This document shows, piece by piece, positions 1 through 15,214 of a DNA stretch of 16,502 nt (within the stretch, counting starts at the first letter, position 1; every line of letters begins with the position of its first letter). The translations under genes were made by a program, and so were the position numbers. The stretch comes from a virus, in UHGV virus genome UHGV-0224345; one strand, written 5' to 3'. The notes beneath the pieces were generated by a model. It did no database searches, was not told the DNA's origin, and worked only from the letters and a program-made list of their open reading frames with translations.

Positions 1-498
1 TACCTTAATCGCAGTGACCGGCGTAATTTTGCTGCGTTCTTCCGCTACAGAAGGTTTACCCACGTTAGTGACTTTCACCGTGCGGGTGATCACTTCTTTC
101 GCCGTCACGGCCTTACCGATACTGCTGACCCAGCCACGAAACACATCCACCGTGCCATTCGGAAAACGGATTTTATAGGCCCGGACATCGCCGCTTTCAA
201 ACCAGCCTATAAGCCCTTTCTGACCTTCCTCTCCCGGTTTCCAGGCCAGCGTAAAACTGGTATCACCTGCAGATTTCTGCCCCTGACCGGTCGCGGTCCA
301 GTCCGCGTCTTCATCATCCAGGTAGTTATCATCGTAGGGTTCAGCCGTCATCTCGCCCGGCGTCAGATCCTTCACCTTAGCCAGTCGCTGCCAGTCATCG
401 TCTGACAACGGGTTTGCATAAGCATCAGCCTTGCCGTTGTAAACCCACAGAGTGGTACCGGCACCTTTTACCGGCTCCAGGGGATTTGGTGTTGCCAT
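1..498 (-). CDS. V: Major tail protein V, N-terminal part; gene runs off the window start
   Basis: Reverse-complement from ATG at 498 translates [20 protein letters not shown]...[38 protein letters not shown], matching lambda gpV as I recall it. No stop before position 1, so it is absent from the ORF track. Confidence 0.9.
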
Positions 499-505
499 AT
501 CGTCC

Positions 506-901
506 TCACATCTCGTATGTAATGGAATAAGTCAGATCCGCAGAGCTCCATAACGCCATATCGTCATCACGACGATACTCATAGCCCTGCGTAACCATCG
601 TGGTAATCAGTCCTGCCAGTGCCGGGATCGCAGTCATCGCCGGGTAAATCCGGCTTTCCATCCACTGATCAAGCTCTGAATCCGGTACCTGTGCCGGTAA
701 AAACACCTCAATATGCAGCGTGGCCCGCCAGGTATCTGCATCCAGCTCTTCACCGGTATACTCTGCATCCGTCAGATAAACCGCGATCGCAGGAAAATCC
801 TCTTCGTCAAAAACAACGGGGCGACCATCAAACAGCGTCGCCCCGTGTTCATGCTGCTCGAGTGCATCCAGCACTGCGGCACGAATGTCAGTGTGTTTCA
901 T
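506..901 (-). CDS. U: Tail terminator protein U
   Basis: 131 aa, [17 protein letters not shown]...[13 protein letters not shown]; same length and near-identical to lambda gpU. ATGA start/stop overlap with Z. Confidence 0.95.
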
Positions 902-1473
902 CGTTTTATTGCAATCCTCAGTTGTTGTTTCAGCGCGTATGCCAGTTCTTTAGGCAGGCGTTCACGCCGGATACGGTCAACATTCTCATCAAATGCCTGT
1001 TTCAGTGGGGCCGCCATCGGGATTTTCACCACCTGAATGGGAAGGCGATTACGCTTTTTTCTTCCCTTGTCGTCATTGCCCTCCTCATATCTGGCCTGGG
1101 GAAGACGTTGCATAACATGCCAGCGCCCATTATTTAATCGCTGGATAAATGCCCGCTGATAACGATGCTGACCGGCTTTGAGTATGCTGTTCGGACGACG
1201 TCCCAGCATTCTGATCCCCAGCTTAATCACAGGGAGATCACCGCGGTTAACGATAATTCTGGCATTCGGATTTCTGACCGTCGCCCGTTTCAGTCTGGAC
1301 CGTTCCTTTACCAGTTTCCGTCTCACCCTGGTTTCCCGGGCAACCTGTGACGAAGACTGATTAATCGCCGTTGTGGCCACGCGGTTAATCGTCATTGCTG
1401 AAGCCGCCGGAATGGCGTTTTTACGAACCCGGCTCAGATTATCAATCGCCTGATCAAGCCCTTTTATCGCCAT
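898..1473 (-). CDS. Z: Tail completion protein Z
   Basis: 191 aa; N-terminus MAIKGL and C-terminus RRERLPKELAYALKQQLR resemble lambda gpZ, middle more diverged. Position between U and FII as in lambda. Confidence 0.9.
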   Translation of the reverse strand: MAIKGLDQAIDNLSRVRKNAIPAASAMTINRVATTAINQSSSQVARETRVRRKLVKERSRLKRATVRNPNARIIVNRGDLPVIKLGIRMLGRRPNSILKAGQHRYQRAFIQRLNNGRWHVMQRLPQARYEEGNDDKGRKKRNRLPIQVVKIPMAAPLKQAFDENVDRIRRERLPKELAYALKQQLRIAIKR

Positions 1474-1488
1474 AATTTCACCCTGCGT

Positions 1489-1842
1489 TTATCGTCGCCG
1501 GTTAACAGCGGGTGGTTGCCCACGGTTGAGCCAGAGATGACAGCTTCCACCATCATCCGGCGAAACCCGGTCTATCCAGAAGTTTTCCTCACCGATGGTC
1601 AGCGTGTCTCCACGCCGCAGTTGCCGCACATCATCAGTCCGGACAAACAGGGACGGGCTGGAGCCTTCAACGCGCACGCCCTGTCCGGCATAGCTGATAT
1701 TTTCAGGGTCATCAAAAACACCACGTATTACTGCGCCGGACTGCTCACCGGATGTCATGGTGGCTGACGTTCCCATGTACCCGCGTATCGTTTCATCGGC
1801 GCGGGCAATGGCAGCATCGAACAGGTTATCGAAATCAGCCAC
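1489..1842 (-). CDS. FII: Head-tail joining protein FII
   Basis: 117 aa, MADFDNLFDAAIARADETIRGYMG... near-identical to lambda gpFII. GTG start preceded by GGAGG. Confidence 0.93.
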   Translation of the reverse strand: MADFDNLFDAAIARADETIRGYMGTSATMTSGEQSGAVIRGVFDDPENISYAGQGVRVEGSSPSLFVRTDDVRQLRRGDTLTIGEENFWIDRVSPDDGGSCHLWLNRGQPPAVNRRR

Positions 1843-1853
1843 AGCGCCTCCCG

Positions 1854-2240
1854 TTATTGCATTCTGGCCAGGCCGCGTTCTGTCATTTCGGCTGCCACAC
1901 CGGCAGAGACACGGAACGCCGTTCCCGGCAGCACAAATGCCACAGTGTCATCCCGCGTGGCGTGAAGTGCATCAGTATGCAGCGTCACCAGTGCCACAAC
2001 CGTGACCAGATCAGCCGTATCAGTCACGGTATCCGGCTGCGCTGATACAACCTCATTTTCATGTCCGGTCAGCGCATTTTCCGGGCTGATAGGGGTATCC
2101 TGATCGGCAGTGTCATCAAGCTCCTCTTCCAGCTCTGCCACACGGAGCGCCAGTTCTTCTTTCGTTCCCGTCAGGCTGACATCACGGTTCAGTTGCTCAC
2201 CCAGCTCCTGAAGACGGGCAATCAGTTCATCTTTCGTCAT
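1854..2240 (-). CDS. FI: DNA packaging accessory protein FI
   Basis: Start chosen at MTKDELIARLQELGEQLNRDVSLTGTKEELALRVAELEEELDD (ATG 2240, GGAGGAG upstream); C-terminus AFVLPGTAFRVSAGVAAEMTERGLARMQ matches lambda gpFI. The track ORF extends 13 codons further upstream from a GTG. Confidence 0.9.
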   Translation of the reverse strand: MTKDELIARLQELGEQLNRDVSLTGTKEELALRVAELEEELDDTADQDTPISPENALTGHENEVVSAQPDTVTDTADLVTVVALVTLHTDALHATRDDTVAFVLPGTAFRVSAGVAAEMTERGLARMQ

Positions 2241-2263
2241 GAACTCCTCCACAGAGAGAAAAT

Positions 2264-2277
2264 GGCCCCGAAGGGCC
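2264..2277 (-). terminator. GC hairpin with UUCG loop plus pyrimidine/U-rich tail in the E-FI intergenic region
   Basis: Minus-strand RNA reads GGCCC-UUCG-GGGCC followed by AUUUUCUCUCU, immediately 3' of the E stop (2282-2284). Confidence 0.4.
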
Positions 2278-2281
2278 ACGA

Positions 2282-3307
2282 TTACGCCAGTTGTACGGAA
2301 ACGAACTCATCAGGGTCAGCCAGCAGCATCAGCGGTGCTGACTGAATCATGGTGAACTCACGCGCCGGATCGCCGGTGGTCACCCAGTTTTTCGGGTAAC
2401 GGGCAGAGGCGTTAATGCCTTCGCGCTGTGCATCCGCATCCTGAATGCAGCCATAGGTGCGCAGACCGCGTGCATGAGTGTTACCCAGCACCATCGTGTT
2501 GTCCGGCAGGAAGTTCTTTTTGACGCCGTTTTCCACGTACTGTCCGGAATACACGACGATGGCCACATCGCCATACATTCCCTTATAAGACACCGCTTTG
2601 CCCAGGTCTTTTACCGCTGTCTCCAGTTCGGAATGAGAGCCGCGACGGGTATCCAGCTTCTCCCTGACGGCTTTGAAGGAACGGAACAGCGCCCAGCCTT
2701 TCGGGTCAAACACAATGATATTCACCACGCCGCTGGCGTTCAGCGCGTAGGCTTCGATATCGTCGGTCGGGTCATACGTGGACTTGTCACGCTTGCTCCA
2801 CTCCGTGCCGCCGGACTGTGTGATGTTGTTCGCCGCACTGCGGCCCATATCCACCTCAACCGGATCAAAGGCTTCACCGGTCATGGTGTATTTGCCCTTA
2901 AGCACGGCAGAAACTGCCTGCATCTCTTCGACCTGGGCAATGGCCAGCTCTTCGTCACGCATGTTCTGCATGATGATGCGACGGCGGCGGTAAGCCGGGT
3001 CCGCCAGATTCTGCGGATCTTCATCCGGCAGGCGACGCAGGGTCATCTGCGGATTCACCTCATGCTTCGGCTTGACATATCCCGGCGTAAATTCAGAGGT
3101 GGAGCCGCCACGGGAACGGATAACCTCACCGGAAACAATCGGCGAAACGTACAGCGCCATGTTTACCAGTCCCGGAATTTGTGAGAGATAGACTTTCTCC
3201 GTGGTGAAGGGATAGCTCTCACGGAAAAAGAGACGCAGAAACAGCGGATCAAACTTAAATTTCTGCTCATTTGCCGCCAGCAGCTGGGCGGTTGTGTACA
3301 TCGACAT
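2282..3307 (-). CDS. E: Major capsid protein E
   Basis: 341 aa, MSMYTTAQLLAANEQKFKFDPLFLRLFFRESYPFTTEKVYLSQIPGLVNMALYVSP...; same length and near-identical to lambda gpE. Confidence 0.97.
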   Translation of the reverse strand: MSMYTTAQLLAANEQKFKFDPLFLRLFFRESYPFTTEKVYLSQIPGLVNMALYVSPIVSGEVIRSRGGSTSEFTPGYVKPKHEVNPQMTLRRLPDEDPQNLADPAYRRRRIIMQNMRDEELAIAQVEEMQAVSAVLKGKYTMTGEAFDPVEVDMGRSAANNITQSGGTEWSKRDKSTYDPTDDIEAYALNASGVVNIIVFDPKGWALFRSFKAVREKLDTRRGSHSELETAVKDLGKAVSYKGMYGDVAIVVYSGQYVENGVKKNFLPDNTMVLGNTHARGLRTYGCIQDADAQREGINASARYPKNWVTTGDPAREFTMIQSAPLMLLADPDEFVSVQLA

Positions 3308-3324
3308 AAAAAAATCCCGTAAAA

Positions 3325-3346
3325 AAAAGCCGCACAGGCGGCCTTT
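3325..3346 (-). terminator. Stem-loop plus U-tract in the D-E intergenic region (minus-strand RNA)
   Basis: Minus-strand RNA AAAGGCCGC-CUGU-GCGGCUUUU, then UUUUACGGGAUUUUUUU running into the E ATG. The 56-nt D-E gap matches lambda spacing. Confidence 0.45.
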
Positions 3347-3363
3347 AGTGATGAAGGGTAAGG

Positions 3364-3696
3364 TTAAACGATGCTGATTGCCGTTCCGGCAAACGCGGTC
3401 CGTTTTTTCGTCTCGTCGCTGGCAGCCTCCGGCCAGAGTACATCCTCATAACGGAACGTGCCGGACTTGTAGAACGTCAGCGTGGTGCTGGTCTGGTCAG
3501 CAGCAACCGCAAGAATGCCAACGGCAGCACCGTCGGTGGTGCCATCCCACGCAACCAGCTTACGGGTGGAGGTGTCCAGCATCAGCGGGGTCATTGCAGG
3601 CGCTTTCGCACTCAATCCGCCGGGCGCAGTTGCGGTATGAGCCGGGTCACTGTTGCCCAGCGGCTGGTAATGGGTAAAGGTTTCTTTGCTCGTCAT
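3364..3696 (-). CDS. D: Head decoration protein D
   Basis: 110 aa from the second ATG ([27 protein letters not shown]...[11 protein letters not shown]), matching lambda gpD. AAGGGA sits 5 nt upstream of this ATG. Confidence 0.95.
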
Positions 3697-3705
3697 AAAC
3701 ATCCC

Positions 3706-4311
3706 TTACACTGGTGTGTTCAGCAAATCGTTAACGGCATCAGATGCCGGGTTACCTGCAGCCAGCGGTGCCGGTGCCCCCTGCATCAGACGATCCAGCG
3801 CAGTGTCACTGCGCGCCTGTGCACTCTGTGGTGCAGCTGCCAGAATGCGGCGGGCCGTTTCCACGGTCATACCGGGGGTTTCTGCCAGCACGCGTGCCTG
3901 TTCTTCGCGTCCGTGAGCCTCCTCACAGTTGAGGATCCCCATAATGCGGCTGTTTTCTGCCGCAACCGCTGCGGTGATCTGCGCGTTCACGTCCGGCTGC
4001 GCCGCGCTGGCGTTCTCGCCCTCCGTCGCTGGCACCACGTCAGTAACGTCAGCCTGCGAAGCAGTGGCTGAAACAGTTGTTGATTGAGTCTCTTTGGTCA
4101 TTCGCCCTCCTGAGAGACGGGATTTACGTGCATCCAGTGCATCACGCATAACGGTGATCGCATCGGTACTGTTAACAAGTTCATCAGCCAGTCCGGCATC
4201 AATGGCCTCCTGACCGCTGTACACTGCAGCCTCGGTATCCAGCACAGCCTGCACGGACAGGCCGGTATATGCCGACACCTTCTGCGCAAACATCTGGCGG
4301 GTTGCGTCCAT
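3706..4311 (-). CDS. Nu3: Scaffolding protein Nu3, in-frame internal start within C
   Basis: ATG at 4311 (MDATRQMFAQKVSAYTGLSV...) lies 714 nt downstream of the C start and shares the C stop, the same geometry as lambda Nu3. Confidence 0.8.
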   Translation of the reverse strand: MDATRQMFAQKVSAYTGLSVQAVLDTEAAVYSGQEAIDAGLADELVNSTDAITVMRDALDARKSRLSGGRMTKETQSTTVSATASQADVTDVVPATEGENASAAQPDVNAQITAAVAAENSRIMGILNCEEAHGREEQARVLAETPGMTVETARRILAAAPQSAQARSDTALDRLMQGAPAPLAAGNPASDAVNDLLNTPV

Positions 4312-5005
4312 CCGGGACTGCAGTGTCTCCCGGACGTCATCCGGAAGATGGCTGTAGGGATTGCCATCCACCTTATGGCTGCCGCTGTAAATCAGCGTGA
4401 TTTCCACGCCCTGTTTCTCCAGCGCAGCACCGTAATTGCTGTGAGCCATCATGACGCCGATGGAGCCTGTCCGGGCGGTCTGCGTGACCAGACGCCGGGA
4501 GGCGGCGCTGGCAAGCAGCTGACCTGCACTGCAGTTCATGTCGTTGGCCAGCGCCCATACCGGTTTTATGTCTCGCACACGGGCGATGATGTCAGCACAG
4601 TCAAATGCTCCCGCCACCATTCCGCCTGGCGTGTCCATATCGAGCAGAATGCCGTCCACCATCGGATCGCTGGCAGCCTGTTGCAGACGGGCGATAATGC
4701 CGTTGTAACCGGTCATCCCCGAATACGGCTGTAGCGCCCGCGTCCGGCTGACCAGCGTGCCGGAAACCGGCAGCACGGCGATGCCGTTCATGACCTGATA
4801 ACTGCGGGCCTGTCGTGGTCCGTCATCATCACCGGATAATGCCAGCGCCGCGGGTGCCTCCTGGGCAGTCAGGCTGTCACCGGACACCGCATCCGTCAGG
4901 CGGCTGATCCCAAGCTGGCCTGCAAGCGCACAAAAGAAAACCCGCGCATAGGCGGGTTCAAGCATCAGCGGCTCATTAAAGGCCATACTGGCAATATGCG
5001 GGAGA

Positions 5006-5025
<20 letters not shown>
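3706..5025 (-). CDS. C: Head maturation protease / scaffold protein C
   Basis: Lambda gpC homolog of 439 aa beginning VTAELRNLPHIASMAFNEPLMLEPAYARVFF from GTG at 5025 (GGAGGAGAAGA upstream). The start overlaps the B stop by 20 nt as in lambda. The track's 477-aa ORF is an upstream in-frame extension. Confidence 0.93.
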
Positions 5026-8706
<3,681 letters not shown>

Positions 8707-8732
<26 letters not shown>

Positions 8733-9252
8733 TCAGCAACCCCGGTATCAGTTCATCCAGCGCGGCTGCTTTGTTCATGGCTTTGATGATATCCCGTTTC
8801 AGGAAATCAACATGTCGGTTTTCCAGTTCCGGAAAACGCCGCTGTACCGAGAGAGGGATCCCGTCAAGAATACTGGCAATTTCACCTGCGATCCGTGACA
8901 GCACGAAAGTACAGAATGCGGTTTCCACCACCTCTGCGGAGTCTCTGGCATTCTTCAGCTCCTGTGCGTCGGCCTGCGCACGCGTAAGTCGATGGCGTTC
9001 GTACTCAATAGTCCCAGGCTGGAGATCTGCCTCACTGGCAGCCCTGTAATCCTCAACCTCTTTACGGAGTTTTTCATTTTCGATATCAGCTTCCCTCTGC
9101 GCATACCACTGAATTGCCATGGCGGTATCAAATACAGATTCAACGCCCTTACCACCTCCGGAGACGCAAGGGAGTCCCTGAGACTGCCAGCGTTCAATCG
9201 TTCGCGGATCCACGTTGAAAATTTCGGCAAGTTTCTTTTTATTAACCTTCAT
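8707..9252 (-). CDS. nu1: Terminase small subunit Nu1 (N-terminal DNA-binding region diverged from lambda, remainder lambda-like)
   Basis: 181 aa. From about residue 70 ([60 protein letters not shown]...) it matches lambda Nu1 as I recall it. The N-terminal part ([41 protein letters not shown]...) is only partly conserved. Confidence 0.95.
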
Positions 9253-9277
9253 GAAACAGTCTCACAATAAATACAGG

Positions 9278-9393
9278 GGCCGACATGAAAGTGCCCGAAA
9301 ATGACTTTTTTAGGCGTTTTCATGTCGGACCTTTTACGGATTCGATATTAGAAAAAACAAATAGTTATGTTCGAGAAGTACCGACATGATTTT
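9278..9393. promoter_or_regulatory. cosB-like terminase binding region: three copies of CCGACATGA in the R1 / R2 (inverted) / R3 arrangement
   Basis: CCGACATGA at 9280-9288 and 9381-9389 (direct), TCATGTCGG at 9320-9328 (inverted), lying between cosN and the Nu1 start, where lambda has R3-I1-R2-R1. Confidence 0.6.
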
Positions 9394-9428
9394 CCCCGGA
9401 AAATTTTCATAAATAGCGAAAACCCGCG

Positions 9429-9440
9429 AGGTCGCCGCCC
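9429..9440 (-). other. cos: cosN cohesive-end site (12-nt GGGCGGCGACCT on minus strand); cosQ-like sequence about 9457-9470
   Basis: Reverse-complement of 9429-9440 is GGGCGGCGACCT, followed on the minus strand by CGCGGGTTTTCGCTATTTATGAAAATTTTCCGG. Plus strand 9441-9470 is the reverse-complement of a lambda right-end-like sequence (GGGTCCTTTCCGGCGATCCGACCGGTTACG). Confidence 0.9.
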
Positions 9441-9646
9441 CGTAACCGGTCGGATCGCCGGAAAGGACCCACGAAATGATAATGATTATCATCTATATAA
9501 GGTTTATCACAACATGTGTGTACGCCATCAAACCACGAGAAATAATCAATTATGACGCAGGTATCGTATTAATTGATCTGCGTCAAATTAACGTAAAAGC
9601 AACTTCAGATAATACAAATCAGCAACACTGAATATGGGGAAACATT

Positions 9647-9832
9647 ATGTCATCAAAGAACAGAACCCGCAGAACAACAACCCGCAACATCCGATTTCCA
9701 AACCAGATGATTGAACAAATTAACATCGCTCTTGATCTGAAAGGTTCAGGAAACTTTTCAGCGTGGGTTATTGAAGCCTGCAGAAGAAGGCTGTCAACAG
9801 AGAGTTCGGGTATGAATTACATAATTAAGTAA
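9647..9832 (+). CDS. Small ribbon-helix-helix (Arc/MetJ/CopG-like) putative DNA-binding protein
   Basis: 61 aa, MSSKNRTRRTTTRNIRFPNQMIEQINIALDLKGSGNFSAWVIEACRRRLSTESSGMNYIIK. Basic N-tail, then strand (NIRFP), helix (MIEQINIALDLKG), helix (NFSAWVIEACRRRL). GGGGAAA sits upstream of the ATG. Lies in an AT-rich island. Confidence 0.65.
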   Translation: MSSKNRTRRTTTRNIRFPNQMIEQINIALDLKGSGNFSAWVIEACRRRLSTESSGMNYIIK

Positions 9833-9964
9833 CATGGTGTTCACAGAACACGCAGTTACCGGACACATCAGTTTTCCATTCGCTCCCCGGCAGTACAGGC
9901 TTCCCCTCTGACGGGATAGCCTGAAAAAATAACACAGAAAATTATTTGTTATAATTAATATAAC

Positions 9965-10105
9965 TTACTCAAAAAAAAGCGACGAGAAAATCAGCATCAA
10001 CGAACAATAAGCGCCAATACGTGATAACAAATGGCAGCCATATTTATCTGCAGTATAAGCAATGGACAGGATAACCACACCAGAAACCGTCAGCATAAAA
10101 TCCAT
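9965..10105 (-). CDS. Candidate 46-aa hydrophobic peptide (not in ORF track; hand-translated)
   Basis: Minus-strand ATG at 10105 to TAA at 9965-9967 gives MDFMLTVSGVVILSIAYTADKYGCHLLSRIGAYCSLMLIFSSLFFE. GGGGAAG lies 6 nt upstream. AT-rich context, convergent with the RHH ORF. Confidence 0.25.
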   Translation of the reverse strand: MDFMLTVSGVVILSIAYTADKYGCHLLSRIGAYCSLMLIFSSLFFE

Positions 10106-10455
10106 TTGAACTTCCCCGGACAAAATCGACTCATCTAAAGATTTACAGCTCTTTTTATTATCAATATGTTAAAAGTAAAATAAACAGATGTTCAATAACA
10201 CGAATACAAAAACGTGCTGAAATTCAATGAATCCATTTCTGTGTCATCAATTAATAGTGATAAACATCCGGCTTCTTCCACCATCGCACCGGACAGGCGA
10301 CTATGAGGGGACAACGCCGCGCTCCGTTAACGCGGTAAACCCCGGTGTGTATCGTTTTTGATTATCCCCGCACACTCGCGCAGAGGAGTCTCCCTGTCGG
10401 GCTGCGGTCTCTGTTAATGAGGGAATACAGCGACGATACGGCGCATCAACAAAAC

Positions 10456-10929
10456 TTATTTCAGGCACTGAGTGCGGATATAGTCCTGTGCCCCTTCCAG
10501 TTGCTTGTGCATCGTCATCAGCCGCTCTCTGAGGGTGAAATAATCCCGTGTAACGGTGTCTGCCAGTTGGGGGCCGGTTGCATTATCCACGCCGGAGGTG
10601 GTGGGGGCTTCACGCACGGAGCCTGGACAGGTGGCGTTGATCCGCAGGCGCTTACGACCAGCGGCAACGTCAGCGCGAAGAGTTTCATTTTCAGCTCTCG
10701 CATCGGCTAATTCCCTCGAGTATTTTGCATCGAGCGCAGCAACATCGCGCTGGCGCACCTGCATATCAGTAATGGTTGCGTTCGCCAGCTTCAGTTCACT
10801 GGCTTTGTTATCGCGCTGCGCTTTGTAGGTAATCGCGTTATCACGGTAATGGTCTGTTGCCATCCACAGCGCACCACAGGCCACCAGCAGAATAACGATA
10901 AACGCGGAAAGCATTCGGTTTATGTTCAC
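10456..10929 (-). CDS. Rz: Spanin inner-membrane subunit Rz (i-spanin)
   Basis: 157 aa; [69 protein letters not shown]...[22 protein letters not shown] strongly resembles lambda Rz. GTG start overlaps the upstream ORF stop (GTGA); an alternative ATG is at 10914. Confidence 0.9.
10518..10703 (-). CDS. Rz1: Spanin outer-membrane lipoprotein Rz1 (o-spanin), embedded in the +1 frame of Rz
   Basis: 61 aa, [61 protein letters not shown]. Lipobox (VVSAC) and proline-rich [11 protein letters not shown] core as in lambda Rz1; nested entirely within Rz. Confidence 0.85.
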
Positions 10930-11057
10930 CCCAGCAACCCCGACGAAGACAACATCATCCAGGCCATGGAAAGAAAAAGAGCAACCAGCATTAGTGAAAA
11001 TGAAATGCCGACAATTACACAGAGGATCTTCGCCAGCGTTATGAGTTTGTCTGACAT
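10926..11057 (-). CDS. Small single-pass membrane protein (43 aa), translationally coupled to Rz
   Basis: [43 protein letters not shown] from ATG at 11057 with GGGAGG 7 nt upstream; stop TGA overlaps the Rz GTG. The track shows a 73-aa version extended upstream. Confidence 0.45.
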
Positions 11058-11071
11058 GCTTAATCCTCCCT

Positions 11072-11254
11072 TCACGATTTCAACGCAATGACCAGTTTTG
11101 CCAGCCCATACAGCATCGGGGACACAGCAACACCGACCGCCACCCACTTAATGGCAAAAGCCAGTGCTCTGCTGATGTCATCAGTTACAGGCGCTTTCAG
11201 TTCAAGGCCATTTTTCATAGTCAACCTCAACAGAATTCGTTTATACTTCGCCAT
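11072..11254 (-). CDS. Small protein (60 aa) with C-terminal hydrophobic segment
   Basis: [60 protein letters not shown] from ATG at 11254 with AAGGGAGAA upstream; stop 14 nt before the next ORF's ATG. The track shows a 71-aa version from an upstream GTG. Confidence 0.45.
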
Positions 11255-11410
11255 GTTCTCCCTTGCCTTACTCAAGGTCAGAAACACAAAACCTCGCTTG
11301 GTGCCAACAAACGGGGTTTTTACTTTTATTCACTTACGTTTCGCCAGTTCGCAGGATTTCGTGTTATCCGCCCGCGTGGCCATTCCTCATTTTTCAGCAA
11401 AATATTCTGC

Positions 11411-11944
11411 TTATCTGTCGATTCCCCAGCACGCCAGCGCGCTCTCCTGGTCACGACGGGATACCTGACCATAACAGTTATTTGAGCGGATACGGCAGTC
11501 TCTGCCACCGTCCTTAATCCACCAGCGAATCGCCTCACACGCTCCCCTGCGATCACCTGCATTAATTCGTTTATAAAACGTCGACGGGAAACACTTACCG
11601 GGACCAATGTTGTACGGACAGAATGACGCGATCCCCGCTTTCTGGGGTTCACTCAATGGCACTCTGATGTTTTTCTCCACCCATGCCAGCGCCTTATCAC
11701 GCTCAATGGCGTTAACCCGGTCGCATTTTTCCTTCGACAACTTCATGCCCGGGACGACAGGTTTACTATCCACCAGGATGGCACCGCGGCAGATGGTCCA
11801 GATACCCGCGCCATCACGGTATGCCGTGGTGTGGTTACCTTCCTTTTCATCCAGAAACTGGTCGAGGATTTCAGGCGCAGGCGCACCTGCGGCAATCAGC
11901 GCCAGAACGGCAGCCGACAGGCCGTATTTGATTTTGGTGTTCAT
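11411..11944 (-). CDS. R: SAR (signal-anchor-release) endolysin, T4-lysozyme-like muramidase
   Basis: 177 aa, MNTKIKYGLSAAVLALIAAGAPAPEILDQFLDEKEGNHTTAYRDGAGIWTICRGA... Weakly hydrophobic Gly/Ala-rich N-terminal segment, then a lysozyme-like E...D...T catalytic motif; resembles phage 21 R21 / prophage RrrD-type lysozymes. Confidence 0.9.
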   Translation of the reverse strand: MNTKIKYGLSAAVLALIAAGAPAPEILDQFLDEKEGNHTTAYRDGAGIWTICRGAILVDSKPVVPGMKLSKEKCDRVNAIERDKALAWVEKNIRVPLSEPQKAGIASFCPYNIGPGKCFPSTFYKRINAGDRRGACEAIRWWIKDGGRDCRIRSNNCYGQVSRRDQESALACWGIDR

Positions 11945-11994
11945 GGATATTTATCAGGGTTTATCGATTTCAAATCCCTGGATATGTTAAGTCT

Positions 11995-12339
11995 TCAGGC
12001 CAGCGGTGGAGTCTTCAGAGAACCAGTAATTATTCCCGGTAGTTTTCCTCTGTAGGTTATCAACACATCCTGCGCCTCTAAAATTACGGGGCGCTTTTCC
12101 GGCAACGGACCATCCCCTTCACATAACCCGGCAGCAACATCCATGAAAAACTGCTTCGCCTGCTTTTTCGCCTCAGCTTCGTAAAACTCCAGCGTGGCAT
12201 CTTCAGTACGGTCAAGACTAATCGCCACATCTGGCAACAACAGTGACGGATACCCACCAATTTCCAGTGCCACAGTAACAGTAATCTTATCCGGGTAATT
12301 ATTTATCCCTTTAACAACCAGTTCGTATTTTTTCTTCAT
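11995..12339 (-). CDS. Conserved-looking protein of unknown function inserted between holin and endolysin
   Basis: 114 aa, MKKKYELVVKGINNYPDKITVTVALEIGGYPSLLLPDVAISLDRTEDATLEFYEAEAKKQAKQFF... ATG lies 4 nt after the holin stop. No transmembrane segment evident. Confidence 0.7.
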   Translation of the reverse strand: MKKKYELVVKGINNYPDKITVTVALEIGGYPSLLLPDVAISLDRTEDATLEFYEAEAKKQAKQFFMDVAAGLCEGDGPLPEKRPVILEAQDVLITYRGKLPGIITGSLKTPPLA

Positions 12340-12343
12340 CGCT

Positions 12344-12559
12344 TTACTCTCCCCGCGCCGCCTTACGCCGGTCCTCTCTGATTTTGAAATACAGGTTAGT
12401 CAGATATGTCAGCAGCCCAAACAGCAGACTCCCCAGCACGCCTATTGCCGCCCACTGAGACGGGGAAACCCTGTCCAGCAACTGCAGGAACCAGTAGCCC
12501 GTTCCCACCGCTGACGTGGTGTATGACACACCTGTTGTGATTTTTTCCATCTGGTACAT
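12344..12559 (-). CDS. S: Class II holin (phage 21 S21-type pinholin) with dual-start motif
   Basis: 71 aa, [71 protein letters not shown]; strongly resembles phage 21 S (S2171/S2168) as I recall it. Met1 and Met4 give a holin/antiholin dual start. Confidence 0.9.
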
Positions 12560-12599
12560 ACCCCGTCTCCCGTTATCCGGAAGCTCACAACAATATAAA

Positions 12600-12623
12600 G
12601 ACCACCGGCACACACCGATGGTC
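12600..12623 (-). terminator. Strand-specific intrinsic-terminator-like hairpin about 40 nt upstream of the holin start
   Basis: Minus-strand RNA GACCAUCGG-UGUGUG-CCGGUGGUC (9 bp including one G-U, which would be a C-A mismatch on the plus strand), followed by CUUUAUAUUGUUGUG. Confidence 0.5.
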
Positions 12624-12635
12624 CCTTGCGCAGGC

Positions 12636-12881
12636 TTACATCATCATGTCGCTGTCAGGTGTGGGTTCACCGCCATCTGAAGCACTCCCGTCACCCGCGA
12701 TACCTTCCGGCTCCGGAACCGCTGGTACGCCCAGCAGCTCATCCAGAATGGCATCCACTTCTGCATCAAGACGCGACTCAAGGTTCTGGCGGAGTTTCTG
12801 TTTCAGTGCGCTCAGGACTTCTTCAGAGCGCAGGACTTCCTTCACTGCCTCAGCAGTGACCAGGGATGTGATTTCTGACAT
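12636..12881 (-). CDS. Small acidic protein of unknown function (81 aa)
   Basis: [81 protein letters not shown] from ATG at 12881. Protein-like composition, whereas overlapping plus-strand ORFs are Ser/Arg/Pro-rich. Weak ribosome-binding site. Confidence 0.55.
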
Positions 12882-12918
12882 GGGATTTTCTCGTTGAAAG
12901 GTGTTGTCAAGAAAGTGA

Positions 12919-13101
12919 CTACGGAATGAGCGGATCTTCGGGTTTGCTTCCGGCTGACTGACTGGCGCTGATTCTCTCAGCGGCCCTTTTATCAATCTGC
13001 CTGCGCCAGAAATCGCGCACTGCCCTGTACCCACCCGAAAGAAGATACATAACACAGACTGCCATACAGAAGTACAGCATTACCTGATGAATAAATGTCA
13101 T
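12919..13101 (-). CDS. Small membrane protein (60 aa), N-terminal transmembrane helix and basic C-terminal tail
   Basis: MTFIHQVMLYFCMAVCVMYLLSGGYRAVRDFWRRQIDKRAAERISASQSAGSKPEDPLIP; ATG at 13101 with a weak Shine-Dalgarno sequence. Confidence 0.4.
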   Translation of the reverse strand: MTFIHQVMLYFCMAVCVMYLLSGGYRAVRDFWRRQIDKRAAERISASQSAGSKPEDPLIP

Positions 13102-13199
13102 AATTTCTTACCGTTATGGTTGACAATGAGAACTGTTTTCATTTAGAAATGATTGATGTCGAAAGCATCTTTTCTTTACATTCTCCATTGGGATTACCT

Positions 13200-13236
13200 C
13201 CGCCAGCTTCCATTCCTGCCGCTGGCGGCTTTTTTT
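13200..13236 (+). terminator. Rho-independent terminator oriented on the plus strand, abutting the NanS-p-like stop codon
   Basis: Plus strand CCGCCAGC-(13-nt loop)-GCTGGCGG then C and seven T (13230-13236). On the minus strand the hairpin is preceded by an A-run and not followed by U. Confidence 0.6.
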
Positions 13237-13237
13237 A

Positions 13238-15214
13238 TCATGCCGCGATGTCCGCGTTGTTCACTTCCACCTTCACACTGTCAATCAGCAGCGTATATGT
13301 CGCCGCCTTTGATATGCCTGTCAGTTGCAGTTTGTCCGCCGCCCCTGATGCCGGAGATTTCACCAGTGTGAACGGCGTCCCCCGTTTCTCATCCAGTACC
13401 GGCGTCACCTGAATGCTGTTGTTTCCGGCAAACTCAAAAGCCAGTGTGTGCCATCCGTTATCAAAGACCCCGAACGTTTCCAGCTTCGCATTCGGCTTCT
13501 TGTGGTGCATCGCGTTCAGGTTCGTCGCATCCGTCTGCAGAAAGAAGGACATCAGCATGTCGTTGCCTTCCTCTGCCAGCGTCACTCCCTCCGGCAGGGA
13601 CGACAACTGCCAGTAAATGCCCAGGGCAAACTGATTCGGCACCAGTGAACCCGGCAACTTAAACCGTACGCTCACACGTCCCCCCTTCTTCAGTAACTCC
13701 ACTCCCTGTCCGGCTGCATCATGCTCCAGAAACCAGATGTGGTTTTCCGGTTTATTCAGTTGCAGGGCCTTACCTCCCGTAGCCCCCGCATCACTGACCA
13801 CCGCTTCAGCAATGTTTTTGTTAACATTGTCTCCGCTCGCCGGTTTGTGATAATAGCGCCAGCCCTGTGATGCCAGGTCTTCGCCGGACGCCAGCAGACT
13901 CATCAGGGTTCGGTTACTGACCGGGGCTTCCGGCTCTCTCTCCGTACCTTCACCGGAAGGTCCGGTGGGCTTCACCGTATCAGGCTGTTTTCCGGTAATG
14001 AATTCAGCGTTTCTCCCGGCATGCACAAGAATCGCCGTTGCCAGACGGTCGGAAATAATCCCACGACGTGCCCATGATCCAAAATGCGTTTTACGGTCGG
14101 CCGTCGTCCAGGTTTTGGCGTCCGTTCGACCACCGGCTCCGTAATACCCAATATCCGCAACATCCGGATCTTCTGACGGCTCGTTGGTACCCACATTTCG
14201 CCCGTTTTCATCCGTCATAAACGGCACAAAGAAGATTTTTTTTGCGGATTTCGTCTTGTATGCACCATACACCGCATCGTATTGCGAAGAATAAGTCTGC
14301 TTCCAGTAGTAGGTCGTGTCGCCACAAATCCAGGGAACCGATGACGGAGAGCCCCCGAGACACTGACCTCCGAATTCCGACAGGTCAGAACGATATTTTT
14401 CCACCATGGAATCAAACAGCCCCGGCTGAGTGGCGTATGCACCCTGTTTCAAATCAAACTCGCCCTGCATCCAGACCACTGCAAGCAGAATATTTTTAGG
14501 GTTGGCCTTCAGTGCGGCCTGAGTACGGGTAAGCAGGTCCTTGTACAGTGGCTTATCAACACCCCAGCGTGCCGAGGTCTCGCTTGCGCCGGTGGATTCG
14601 CTGAAGGTACCTTCATCGCCCGCCAAAAATGCAGAACCACCACGGCAGCACGGAACCAGAAGAATACCGGCATTCGCCGGAATAAACGGCAACAATTTCT
14701 TCGCGATATGTAATCCCTGCCCCACGCATCCATACTGAGCTGCGCTGGCTTTCGGGTGTGAAAACTTACTCAAATCCTGAACATCATGCAGGCAGTGGTC
14801 CGCAGGAATAATGTCATTGTAGTTACAGGACGCACCACCCGGCGTGACAGTGCTGCGACGCGCCAGCTGTTTAATACGCGGGTCCGGACGGTCATATGTC
14901 TCCGGCAGCGGAAGCCCTTCACCATACGCCATACCGTTTGACTGCCCGGCCAGGGCAACAACAAAGTAATACTCCGGGTTGCTGGTGGTGCTGATAACTG
15001 CGCCTTCTCCATCCGACGGCTTCACCACCACAGGTGTGGTGACATCACCTTCCGCCGCAATGGCCTGCATCAGGGTATAAGGCGTGATGGCCACCGGACT
15101 GCCAAATGGCTGCCACCCCTCCTTCAGTTTTTGTGTCAGTCGTTTCGCAAGGTCTGACGGCGATGCCGCCCTGACAACATCATAGTGTTTAAATGCCATG
15201 GTTCTTTCCACCAT
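13238..15214 (-). CDS. nanS-p: Prophage-encoded sialate O-acetylesterase (NanS-p-like; N-terminal DUF1737-like region plus SGNH-type esterase and C-terminal domain)
   Basis: 658 aa. MAFKHYDVVRAASPSDLAKRLTQKLKEGWQPFGSPVAITPYTLMQAIAAEGD... resembles the NanS-p / YjhS-like esterases of EHEC lambdoid prophages, which sit between the late regulatory region and S. The likely start is the second ATG at 15199 (MAFKH). Confidence 0.85.
   Translation of the reverse strand: MVERTMAFKHYDVVRAASPSDLAKRLTQKLKEGWQPFGSPVAITPYTLMQAIAAEGDVTTPVVVKPSDGEGAVISTTSNPEYYFVVALAGQSNGMAYGEGLPLPETYDRPDPRIKQLARRSTVTPGGASCNYNDIIPADHCLHDVQDLSKFSHPKASAAQYGCVGQGLHIAKKLLPFIPANAGILLVPCCRGGSAFLAGDEGTFSESTGASETSARWGVDKPLYKDLLTRTQAALKANPKNILLAVVWMQGEFDLKQGAYATQPGLFDSMVEKYRSDLSEFGGQCLGGSPSSVPWICGDTTYYWKQTYSSQYDAVYGAYKTKSAKKIFFVPFMTDENGRNVGTNEPSEDPDVADIGYYGAGGRTDAKTWTTADRKTHFGSWARRGIISDRLATAILVHAGRNAEFITGKQPDTVKPTGPSGEGTEREPEAPVSNRTLMSLLASGEDLASQGWRYYHKPASGDNVNKNIAEAVVSDAGATGGKALQLNKPENHIWFLEHDAAGQGVELLKKGGRVSVRFKLPGSLVPNQFALGIYWQLSSLPEGVTLAEEGNDMLMSFFLQTDATNLNAMHHKKPNAKLETFGVFDNGWHTLAFEFAGNNSIQVTPVLDEKRGTPFTLVKSPASGAADKLQLTGISKAATYTLLIDSVKVEVNNADIAA

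What the first reader, a model, noticed from the sequence alone, without database searches (positions are those of the whole stretch)
9253..9480. Lambda-type cosN/cosQ paired with non-lambda cosB repeats and a hybrid Nu1
cosN and the roughly 45 bp beside it are lambda-like, and Nu1 from about residue 70 plus gpA look lambda-like. But the three R elements in cosB read CCGACATGA (direct, inverted, direct) rather than the lambda CGTTTCC(T/G)TTCT I recall, and the Nu1 N-terminal DNA-binding region is diverged. This would be a recombination joint inside nu1 that swaps packaging-initiation specificity while keeping the gpA-interacting part. The comparison relies on my memory of lambda.
Basis: partly seen in the sequence, partly recalled or inferred. 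Interest (0 to 1): 0.45.

Follow-up and report, generated by a model that had tools for sequence, protein, structure and literature searches.

The report
Natural lambda/phage-21 hybrid packaging site
This E. coli prophage has lambda-type DNA-packaging and head genes, but a roughly 340-bp piece (the terminase binding site cosB plus the DNA-binding end of the small terminase subunit) is of the well-studied phage 21 type; this is a natural version of a hybrid made in the lab in the 1980s, it occurs in about a tenth of complete E. coli genomes, and it is therefore real but ordinary.

Summary
All genes here lie on the minus strand.

- **R boxes.** CCGACATGA occurs exactly three times in the window: 9280 (+), 9320 (-) and 9381 (+). 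These sites align with the annotated R1, R2 and R3 terminase boxes of phage 21 cosB (15/16, 16/16 and 15/16 identical). Lambda matches only 9-10/16.
- **Other cos sites.** The only IHF-consensus match in the region lies at the phage 21 I1 position, between R3 and R2. cosQ (GGGTCCT, 9464-9470), the 12-base cohesive end (9429-9440) and I2 are conserved, and their informative sites are lambda-type.
- **Small subunit.** Nu1 residues 1-70 are 61/70 identical to phage 21 gp1, and the recognition helix [10 protein letters not shown] is identical. Residues 71-181 are 108/112 identical to lambda Nu1.
- **Large subunit.** gpA is 631/641 identical to lambda.
- **Cassette boundaries.** The 21-type cassette runs from 9396 to 9061. 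One end lies between I2 and R3. The other lies at nu1 codons 65-72, which is the end of the solved DNA-binding domain.
- **Precedent and spread.** The architecture is that of the viable laboratory hybrid lambda-21 hy51. The same hybrid (at least 95% identity) is in about 540 of 5,426 complete E. coli genomes, including O157:H7, and in the deposited phage IdasGreatGrand.

Verdict: a new member of a known kind, of low interest.

The parts
9464..9470 (-). cosQ (GGGTCCT), lying inside the 12-bp 'R4' box annotated in phage 21 (window 9460-9471)
   Evidence: Sequence read. It aligns to the R4 feature of M81255 at 11/12, and also to lambda at 11/12. The identification of the 7-bp cosQ with lambda bp 48473-48479 is from memory (Wieczorek and Feiss). 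PMC4669245 states that the 7-bp cosQ is highly conserved.
9429..9440 (-). cosN: the 12-base cohesive-end sequence GGGCGGCGACCT. The wider terminase nicking region aligned to the 21 annotation is 9411-9457.
   Evidence: The region 9411-9457 is 45/47 identical to lambda and 43/47 to phage 21.
9397..9411 (-). I2 (IHF-like site as annotated in phage 21). This is the last lambda-type block before the cassette.
   Evidence: 15/15 identical to lambda and 13/15 to phage 21. Informative sites 9399 and 9397 are lambda-type; 9395 onwards are 21-type.
9376..9391 (-). R3 box of the 21-type cosB (core TCATGTCGG at 9381-9389, which is bp 52-60 from the left cohesive end)
   Evidence: 15/16 identical to phage 21 R3 and 10/16 to lambda R3. 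bp 56 is G and bp 59 is G, the 21-type states of the two positions that PMC4669245 names as critical for small-subunit recognition.
9355..9369 (-). I1, the IHF bending site between R3 and R2
   Evidence: 13/15 identical to the annotated phage 21 I1. It is the only match to WATCAANNNNTTR with at most 1 mismatch in 9253-9480 (9355-9367).
9318..9333 (+). R2 box, inverted relative to R3 and R1 (core 9320-9328)
   Evidence: 16/16 identical to phage 21 R2 and 9/16 to lambda. Found as inverted repeats I1 and I3.
9275..9290 (-). R1 box (core 9280-9288)
   Evidence: 15 of 17 aligned columns match phage 21 R1, against 9/17 for lambda.
9061..9396 (-). The whole 21-type specificity cassette: cosB (R3-I1-R2-R1) plus nu1 codons 1-64
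   Evidence: Informative sites are 116 of 21-type against 14 of lambda-type. Identity to phage 21 is 84% in cosB and 93% in codons 1-64; identity to lambda is 52% and 61%.
9061..9252 (-). nu1 codons 1-64: the winged helix-turn-helix DNA-binding domain of the small terminase subunit, 21 type
   Evidence: 50/54 identical to PDB 7LWR, which has the sequence of phage 21 gp1 residues 1-54. The recognition helix [10 protein letters not shown] is identical to 21, with E20 and S24 where lambda has Q20 and E24.
9031..9060 (-). Recombination joint zone, nu1 codons 65-74, with mixed ancestry
   Evidence: Informative sites: 4 of 21-type, 7 of lambda-type, 2 matching neither. The zone coincides with the end of the solved lambda Nu1 DNA-binding domain (PDB 1J9I, residues 1-68).
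8707..9030 (-). nu1 codons 75-181: oligomerisation and gpA-binding part, lambda type
   Evidence: 128 lambda-type against 5 21-type informative sites. 96% nucleotide identity to lambda and 58% to phage 21. At protein level, residues 71-181 are 108/112 identical to lambda.
6807..8732 (-). A, the large terminase subunit gene, lambda type
   Evidence: 631/641 identical to lambda gpA, against 419 of 647 aligned columns for phage 21 gp2. Pfam GpA_ATPase and GpA_nuclease.

Best explanation
The region is the cos site and terminase genes of a lambda-like prophage. Its packaging-recognition cassette is of the phage 21 specificity class, embedded in otherwise lambda-type DNA. The cassette comprises cosB (R3, IHF site I1, inverted R2, R1) plus the first 64 or so codons of nu1, which encode the winged helix-turn-helix DNA-binding domain of the small terminase subunit.

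Proposed mechanism, with each step marked as shown or inferred:

1. The chimeric small subunit binds the three TCATGTCGG R boxes through a 21-type recognition helix (E20, S24). IHF bends the DNA at I1 to bring R3 and R2 together. This is inferred from sequence identity with the experimentally defined phage 21 determinants.
2. The lambda-type C-terminal half of the small subunit recruits the lambda-type gpA. gpA nicks the shared cosN to give GGGCGGCGACCT cohesive ends, translocates the DNA into lambda-type proheads, and terminates at the next cosQ/cosN. This is inferred. The laboratory hybrid lambda-21 hy51 has the same domain composition and is viable with phage 21 packaging specificity.
3. 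The cassette arose by homologous recombination. One exchange was in the conserved cosN/I2 block and the other at the boundary of the DNA-binding domain in nu1. The mosaic pattern is shown; the direction and timing of the exchange are inferred. Experiments on lambda and the defective prophage DLP12 show that the neighbourhood of cos is a recombination hot spot and that an exchanged nu1 works.
For: **Anatomy**
- The three 9-mers sit at the positions of the phage 21 R boxes, at 15/16, 16/16 and 15/16 identity.
- The only IHF-consensus match in the region is at the I1 position.
- R3 bp 56 and bp 59 are both G, as in phage 21. The recognition helix is identical to gp1. PMC4669245 names R3 bp 56 and 59 and small-subunit residues 20 and 24 as the specificity determinants.
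- The R boxes are better conserved against phage 21 than the spacers between them: 45/48 against 52/69, Fisher p = 0.012. This indicates constraint on the boxes.

**Hybrid structure**
- Segment identities and informative sites switch sharply at both ends of the cassette (p = 2e-51).
- Nu1 residues 71-181 are 108/112 and gpA 631/641 identical to lambda.
- Window 1217-9440 is 94.9% identical to lambda but only 66-71% to phage 21. Right of cos, window 9441-9781 matches the lambda right end at 87%.

**Functionality**
- All head-gene ORFs keep lambda-like lengths.
- The deposited phage IdasGreatGrand has an identical Nu1 and a cos-nu1 region 99.1% identical.
- The hybrid is kept at 98-100% identity in about 540 complete E. 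coli genomes.
- The laboratory hybrid lambda-21 hy51 carries cosB-21, with the 5' half of the small-subunit gene from phage 21 gene 1 and the 3' half from Nu1. It is viable and 21-specific (PMC4669245; PMC9026076).
- Recombination between lambda and DLP12 is frequent next to cos, and the exchanged nu1 is functional (PMC3945230).
Against:
- The cassette is not phage 21 itself. It is 84% identical in cosB and 93% in nu1 codons 1-64.
- Five of the first 54 residues differ from gp1. Three of these are in the wing loop: the window has CVSGGGKG, phage 21 has CASKGSKG, and the GGGKG part is lambda-like.
- R3 has A where phage 21 has G at bp 54.
- A shifted specificity is therefore not excluded.
- GenBank lists IdasGreatGrand as a phage isolated from swamp mud. 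I found no paper that documents its growth.
Confidence: 0.85

Rival explanations
1. The cassette defines a third packaging specificity, related to phage 21 but functionally distinct, so that this terminase would discriminate against genuine phage 21 cos as well as lambda cos.
For: - Five of 54 residues in the DNA-binding domain differ from gp1, three of them in the wing loop.
- The cosB spacers are only about 75% identical to phage 21.
- R3 differs from phage 21 at bp 54.
- Further specificity classes do exist among lambda-like phages: N15/Monarch (PMC4669245) and the quite different Nu1 N-terminus of O157 Sakai Sp4/Sp14.
Against: - The recognition helix is identical to gp1.
- The 9-bp R cores are 26/27 identical to phage 21.
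- The experimentally defined determinants are all 21-type: residues 20 and 24, and R3 bp 56 and 59.
- R-box positions and orientation are unchanged.
Confidence: 0.08
2. This is a decaying cryptic prophage in which cos and nu1 are no longer functional, so the mosaic has no consequence for packaging.
For: - E. coli carries many defective lambdoid remnants with Nu1 homologues. nohA and nohD genes match the lambda-like half of the query in thousands of genomes.
- The prophage sits in a chromosome, and related copies show decay elsewhere: a frameshifted methyltransferase and a truncated esterase in strain SF-088.
Against: - nu1, A, W, B, C, D, E, FI, FII, Z and U are all intact with lambda-like lengths.
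- The R boxes are better conserved than the spacers.
- An identical Nu1 and a near-identical cos are present in a deposited phage genome.
Confidence: 0.05
3. There was no recombination. The pattern reflects unequal evolutionary rates along one vertically inherited gene, with a fast-evolving DNA-binding region and a slowly evolving C-terminus.
For: Specificity regions can evolve quickly. The joint zone at codons 65-74 is mixed rather than a clean breakpoint.
Against: - The window is close to different references on the two sides: 93% to phage 21 and 61% to lambda upstream, then 58% to phage 21 and 96% to lambda downstream. Rate variation cannot produce this reciprocal switch.
- A second sharp switch occurs between 9397 and 9395.
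- Phage 21 gp1 is diverged from lambda over its whole length.
Confidence: 0.02

Closest known systems
Phage 21 cos (cosB-21: R3, I1, R2, R1) and gp1, the phage 21 small terminase subunit (GenBank M81255; DNA-binding domain structure PDB 7LWR)
   Same: - The number, order, orientation and spacing of the R boxes are the same.
- The R cores are 26/27 identical.
- I1 lies between R3 and R2.
- The recognition helix is identical.
- R3 bp 56 and 59 are the 21-type bases.
   Different: - Small-subunit residues 71-181 are only 56/112 identical to gp1, and the large subunit is only about 65% identical to gp2.
- The head genes are 66-71% identical in nucleotide sequence to phage 21.
- The cosB spacers are diverged.
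- The wing loop is GGGKG rather than SKGSKG.
Laboratory hybrid lambda-21 hy51 (Frackman, Siegele and Feiss 1985, as described in PMC4669245 and PMC9026076)
   Same: Same architecture: cosB-21, a chimeric small subunit with its N-terminal half from phage 21 gene 1 and its C-terminal half from Nu1, and lambda gpA. The hybrid is viable and has phage 21 packaging specificity.
   Different: - hy51 was made by crossing lambda with phage 21 in the laboratory. The exact hy51 crossover could not be compared because no sequence was available to me.
- Here the cassette is a diverged natural allele.
- The natural form has a second joint between I2 and R3, and it circulates in wild E. coli prophages.
Phage lambda cos, Nu1 and gpA (NC_001416; Nu1 DNA-binding domain PDB 1J9I)
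   Same: cosQ, cosN, I2, Nu1 residues 71-181, gpA and the head genes are lambda-type at 95-98%.
   Different: - The cosB R boxes are CGTTTCC-type in lambda (9-10/16 identical to the window).
- Nu1 residues 1-70 are 42/70 identical to lambda.
- The recognition helix has Q20 and E24 in lambda, against E20 and S24 here.
Other natural cosB/small-subunit swaps with a shared lambda-type cosN: N15/Monarch, O157 Sakai Sp4/Sp14, and the Rpp-dependent cosB of phage-inducible chromosomal islands (PICIs)
   Same: The principle is the same: cosN and cosQ are conserved while the cosB/DNA-binding module varies (PMC4669245; Figure S8 of PMC2669165; PMC6739421).
   Different: Those systems use unrelated R sequences and unrelated recognition helices or proteins. 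The window carries no rpp gene and encodes a complete head module.

Membership tests
Phage 21-type packaging specificity class (cosB-21 plus gp1-type DNA-binding domain) | Three R boxes, with R2 inverted relative to R3 and R1, located between cosN and the small-subunit gene | tested here: met
   Sites at 9381 (+), 9320 (-) and 9280 (+), aligned to the annotated R3, R2 and R1 of M81255.
Phage 21-type packaging specificity class (cosB-21 plus gp1-type DNA-binding domain) | 21-type R-box sequence, including G at R3 bp 56 and bp 59 (lambda has T and C) | tested here: met
   R boxes are 15/16, 16/16 and 15/16 identical to phage 21. Positions bp 56 and 59 were counted from the cohesive end and both are G. 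The role of these positions is from PMC4669245.
Phage 21-type packaging specificity class (cosB-21 plus gp1-type DNA-binding domain) | IHF site I1 between R3 and R2 | tested here: met
   13/15 identical to the annotated phage 21 I1. It is the only match to the IHF consensus with at most 1 mismatch in 9253-9480. IHF binding itself was not tested.
Phage 21-type packaging specificity class (cosB-21 plus gp1-type DNA-binding domain) | gp1-type recognition helix (E20, S24) | tested here: met
   [10 protein letters not shown] is identical to gp1 and to PDB 7LWR. Lambda has RTIQNWQEQG.
Phage 21-type packaging specificity class (cosB-21 plus gp1-type DNA-binding domain) | Discrimination of more than 1000-fold in favour of 21-cos over lambda-cos DNA in packaging | not testable with these tools
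   This needs in vivo helper-packaging or in vitro cos-cleavage assays.
Lambda-type terminase holoenzyme (Nu1 C-terminal half with gpA) | Small-subunit C-terminal (gpA-binding) half and large subunit of lambda type | tested here: met
   Nu1 residues 71-181 are 108/112 and gpA 631/641 identical to lambda.
Lambda packaging specificity (cosB-lambda) | Lambda R boxes (CGTTTCC-type) and a Nu1 recognition helix with Q20 and E24 | tested here: not met
   The R boxes are 9-10/16 identical to lambda, and the helix differs at positions 20, 21 and 24.
Phage 21 itself (Jouyvirus head operon, M81255) | gp1 C-terminus, gp2 and head genes of phage 21 type | tested here: not met
   56/112 for the gp1 C-terminus, 419 of 647 aligned columns for gp2, and 66-71% nucleotide identity over the head operon.
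Pfam PF07471 Phage_Nu1 | Score above the gathering threshold over the full model | tested here: met
   302.6 bits against a cut-off of 30, covering model positions 1-164 of 164.

The most novel reading that the evidence does not exclude
The cassette might be more than a passive 21-type swap. In E. coli strains with many co-resident lambda-like prophages, alternative cosB/DNA-binding cassettes on a common lambda-type gpA and head module (lambda-type, this 21-like type, and the Sp4/Sp14 type) could be maintained by selection. Selection could act to keep co-resident prophages from packaging each other's DNA. It could also act to escape PICI Rpp proteins that capture the small subunit. The joint zone carries D68 and a Y69 found in neither lambda nor phage 21. 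These residues lie among the positions (E65, D68, L69, R70) where Rpp-escape mutations were reported in the lambda and phage 80 small subunits.
Probability: 0.1. Interest if true: 0.45.

Novelty: new member of a known kind. Interest (0 to 1): 0.15.

Why it matters
This is a clean natural example of modular exchange of packaging specificity. Only the DNA-recognition cassette (cosB plus the small subunit's DNA-binding domain) is replaced. The exchange points are a conserved DNA block on one side and a protein-domain boundary on the other. This matches what the classical lambda-21 hybrid genetics predicted would be viable.

In practice it means that about 10% of complete E. coli genomes, including O157:H7 strains, carry a prophage with lambda-like heads that should package 21-type rather than lambda-type cos DNA. 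That bears on three things:

- predicting which co-resident prophages, cosmids or satellite elements can be mobilised by which terminase;
- annotation, since these genes are labelled only 'terminase small subunit';
- the design of cos-based vectors or transduction assays in wild strains.

It does not open a new question.

Tried and rejected
1. **A phage 21-family prophage.** Rejected. The nu1 3' half, A and the head genes are lambda-type, and only 66-71% identical to phage 21.
2. **Chance repeats.** Rejected on the count (3 observed, 0.14 expected) and, more decisively, on positional identity with the annotated phage 21 R boxes.
3. **A recent transfer from phage 21 proper.** Rejected. Prophages in Nissle and N53 encode a gp1 identical to phage 21, yet their cosB and gene 1 are only 84% and 93% identical to the window. 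The donor was therefore a diverged 21-class allele. I did not find the non-hybrid parent.
4. **O157 Sakai Sp4/Sp14 as carriers of the hybrid.** These prophages have experimental packaging data. Their Nu1 turned out to be a third, unrelated N-terminal type. The O157 copy of the hybrid (strain 86-24) lies in a different prophage, which I did not identify by name.
5. **Literature on natural lambda/21 chimeric small subunits, and on phage IdasGreatGrand.** Nothing found. Sippy et al. 2015 (PMC5006951) is not held in the library.
6. **Exact source of the window.** AR_0372 matches 2-9492 at 99.8% but diverges to the right of cos. SF-088 and S4 match 9253-10400 at 100%, but SF-088 has a truncated esterase. 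I did not pursue this further.
7. **tRNA scan of the window.** None found.
8. **Large protein-database, structure-prediction and metagenome searches.** Not used. The annotated phage and E. coli collections answered the question.

Full report
**What is at the coordinates**

The packaging genes lie on the minus strand. nu1 is 8707-9252 (181 aa) and A is 6807-8732 (641 aa). Both are followed leftwards by intact W, B, C, D, E, FI, FII, Z and U homologues. Pfam confirms Phage_Nu1 for the small subunit, and GpA_ATPase plus GpA_nuclease for the large one.

Read on the gene strand, the interval 9253-9480 holds these sites in order:
- cosQ, GGGTCCT, at 9464-9470
- the 12-base cohesive-end sequence GGGCGGCGACCT at 9429-9440
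- an I2-like block at 9397-9411
- three copies of TCATGTCGG

On the + strand the 9-mer reads CCGACATGA. It occurs at 9280 (+), 9320 (-) and 9381 (+) and nowhere else in the 16.5-kb window, against 0.14 expected.

**What the repeats are**

A megablast of the region against phage genomes gave three kinds of match:
- Lambda-like phages matched in two pieces only (about 62% coverage), with the middle missing.
- Phage 21 (M81255) matched continuously from cosN to the middle of nu1.
- One phage, IdasGreatGrand, matched over 96% of the query at 99.1%.

The phage 21 record carries the curated cos features R4, the terminase nicking region, I2, R3, I1, R2, R1 and I0. In a four-way alignment the three 9-mers fall exactly on phage 21 R3, R2 and R1. 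Identities to phage 21 are 15/16, 16/16 and 15 of 17 aligned columns. Lambda has its CGTTTCC-type boxes at the same places and matches the window at only 9-10/16.

The annotated phage 21 I1 IHF site aligns at 13/15. It is also the only match to the IHF consensus (at most 1 mismatch) in the whole interval.

Counted from the cohesive end, R3 bp 56 and bp 59 are both G. PMC4669245 names these two positions as critical for small-subunit recognition and gives a GC pair at bp 56 of phage 21 R3 against TA in lambda. In the alignment phage 21 reads G and G at these two positions and lambda reads T and C.

Against phage 21, the R boxes are better conserved (45/48) than the rest of cosB (52/69). Fisher p = 0.012. 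This is what constraint on binding sites predicts.

**The protein**

Nu1 residues 1-70 are 61/70 identical to phage 21 gp1 and 42/70 identical to lambda Nu1. Residues 71-181 are 108/112 identical to lambda and 56/112 identical to phage 21.

The recognition helix [10 protein letters not shown] is identical to gp1, with E20 and S24. Lambda has Q20 and E24. [quoted passage not shown]

The closest solved structure for residues 1-54 is PDB 7LWR. Its sequence equals phage 21 gp1 residues 1-54, and it is 50/54 identical to the window. The lambda DNA-binding domain structure 1J9I covers residues 1-68.

gpA is 631/641 identical to lambda, against 419 of 647 aligned columns for phage 21 gp2.

**The mosaic**

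I scored the sites where lambda and phage 21 differ:

| Window interval | Content | 21-type : lambda-type sites |
|---|---|---|
| 9397-9471 | cosQ-cosN-I2 | 1 : 6 |
| 9061-9396 | cosB plus nu1 codons 1-64 | 116 : 14 |
| 9031-9060 | nu1 codons 65-74 | mixed |
| 8707-9030 | rest of nu1 | 5 : 128 |

Fisher p = 2e-51 for cassette against downstream.

One joint lies between 9397 and 9395, that is, between I2 and R3. The other lies at the end of the DNA-binding domain. The swapped unit is therefore a cassette of about 340 bp that holds exactly the two interacting specificity elements.

On a larger scale, window 1217-9440 is 94.9% identical to lambda. The 340 bp to the right of cos match the lambda right end at 87%. 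The phage 21 head operon is only 66-71% identical.

**How it most likely works**

The chimeric small subunit binds the 21-type R boxes, with IHF bending the DNA at I1. Its lambda-type C-terminal half recruits the lambda-type gpA. gpA nicks the shared cosN, and packaging into lambda-type proheads ends at the next cosQ/cosN. All of this is inferred from sequence.

The inference is strongly backed by the laboratory hybrid lambda-21 hy51. That hybrid has cosB-21 and a small-subunit gene whose 5' half comes from phage 21 gene 1 and whose 3' half comes from Nu1. It is viable and serves as the '21-specific helper' (PMC4669245; PMC9026076).

Viability of the natural form is supported in three ways:
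- the head genes are intact;
- IdasGreatGrand, deposited as a phage, has an identical Nu1;
- the hybrid is widely conserved (see below).

The origin by homologous exchange fits experiments showing that lambda recombines with the defective prophage DLP12 most often right next to cos, and that the replaced nu1 is functional (PMC3945230).

**How common it is**

Among 5,426 complete E. coli genomes, 1,168 have a strong match to 8850-9400 (E-value at most 1e-100), and nearly all of those matches cover at least 80% of the query. They fall into two groups:
- About 540 are at 95-100% identity over the whole query. These carry the same hybrid. Examples include O157:H7 strains such as 86-24, an O103:H2 strain and strains with ST38 or ST80 in their names.
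- About 620 are at 81-83%. These are the true phage 21 type. The Nissle and N53 prophages encode a gp1 identical to phage 21.

The window's cassette is thus a diverged 21-class allele (84% in cosB, 93% in codons 1-64), not a recent import from phage 21 itself. The window is identical over 9253-10400 to prophages in strains SF-088 and S4.

**Comparison with the known, and verdict**

This is a member of the phage 21 packaging-specificity class by every sequence criterion I could test. It sits on a lambda-type terminase and head backbone. It is not phage 21, and it does not have lambda specificity.

I found no paper describing the natural chimera. However, its parts, its logic and a laboratory equivalent have been known since the 1980s, and the sequence is present in hundreds of public genomes.

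A residual possibility is a shifted specificity, because of five substitutions in the DNA-binding domain (three of them in the wing) and one change in R3. I put this at about 8%.

Overall, the finding is a correct and well-reasoned reading of an ordinary feature: a new member of a known kind, of low interest.

Noticed in passing
window 9031-9060 (nu1 codons 65-74): The joint zone reads [10 protein letters not shown]69 occurs in neither lambda nor phage 21, which both have L69; D68 is shared with phage 21. Rpp-escape mutations in the lambda and phage 80 small subunits were reported at E65K, D68G, L69R and R70P (PMC6739421). This patch could therefore affect capture of the small subunit by PICI Rpp proteins. 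Y69 is also present in the IdasGreatGrand and O157 copies.
   Followed up: partly
window about 9145-9165 (nu1 codons 30-36): Inside the 21-type DNA-binding domain the wing loop reads CVSGGGKG. Its GGGKG is lambda-like, whereas phage 21 has SKGSKG. It appears as a small cluster of lambda-type informative sites. It is either a micro-mosaic or the ancestral state.
   Followed up: no
window about 8650-8712 (start of A, gpA residues 8-21 and 37): The gpA N-terminus differs from lambda at 8 of its first 50 residues (IDILRRD against VNRLRHF). Nucleotide identity to lambda drops to 80% here, against 96-100% in the flanking DNA. From memory, this is the part of gpA that binds Nu1. The patch is identical in IdasGreatGrand and O157 86-24.
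   Followed up: partly
window 9448: There is a C where lambda, phage 21 and IdasGreatGrand all have A (GACCGGTTACG against GACAGGTTACG). The position is 8 bp outside the cohesive end, between cosQ and cosN.
   Followed up: no
window 9476-9492: A perfect 8+8 palindrome, ATGATAAT-G-ATTATCAT, lies just outside cosQ. Lambda has the inner GATAATGATTATC. Similarity to related prophages breaks here: AR_0372 is 99.8% identical up to 9492 and then diverges, and IdasGreatGrand similarity ends at 9470. cos therefore sits on a mosaic boundary.
   Followed up: partly
window 9647-9832 (+): A 61-aa YlcI/YnfO (DUF3950) ORF lies on the opposite strand just right of cos, within a stretch (9441-9781) that is 87% identical to the lambda right end. 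It is followed by an AT-rich stretch at about 9840-10260 that contains only a small hypothetical ORF.
   Followed up: partly
window 10456-15214 (-): The late and lysis region is not lambda-like. It holds an Rz-family lysis protein, a lysozyme, a YdfR/DUF1327 protein, a P21-type class II holin, and a 658-aa ORF with DUF1737, SASA carbohydrate esterase and DUF6645 domains. The esterase ORF is truncated in the otherwise matching SF-088 prophage. The Ile/Arg/Arg tRNA genes seen upstream in related prophages are not within the window.
   Followed up: partly
literature: O157 Sakai prophages Sp4/Sp14 (supplement of PMC2669165): These prophages have a lambda-like cosN followed by a completely different Nu1 N-terminus (MATQTEVARHLSLTDRQLRRLQK...) with a recognisably Nu1-like C-terminal half. 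This is a further natural cosB/DNA-binding cassette type on the same kind of backbone.
   Followed up: no
E. coli genome hit H125 (strain HMDUC-17, nohD): A gene annotated nohD is 100% identical to the lambda-type 3' half of this nu1 (query 293-551) but lacks the 21-type 5' half. It is either a possible lambda-type parent or a truncated derivative of the hybrid.
   Followed up: no
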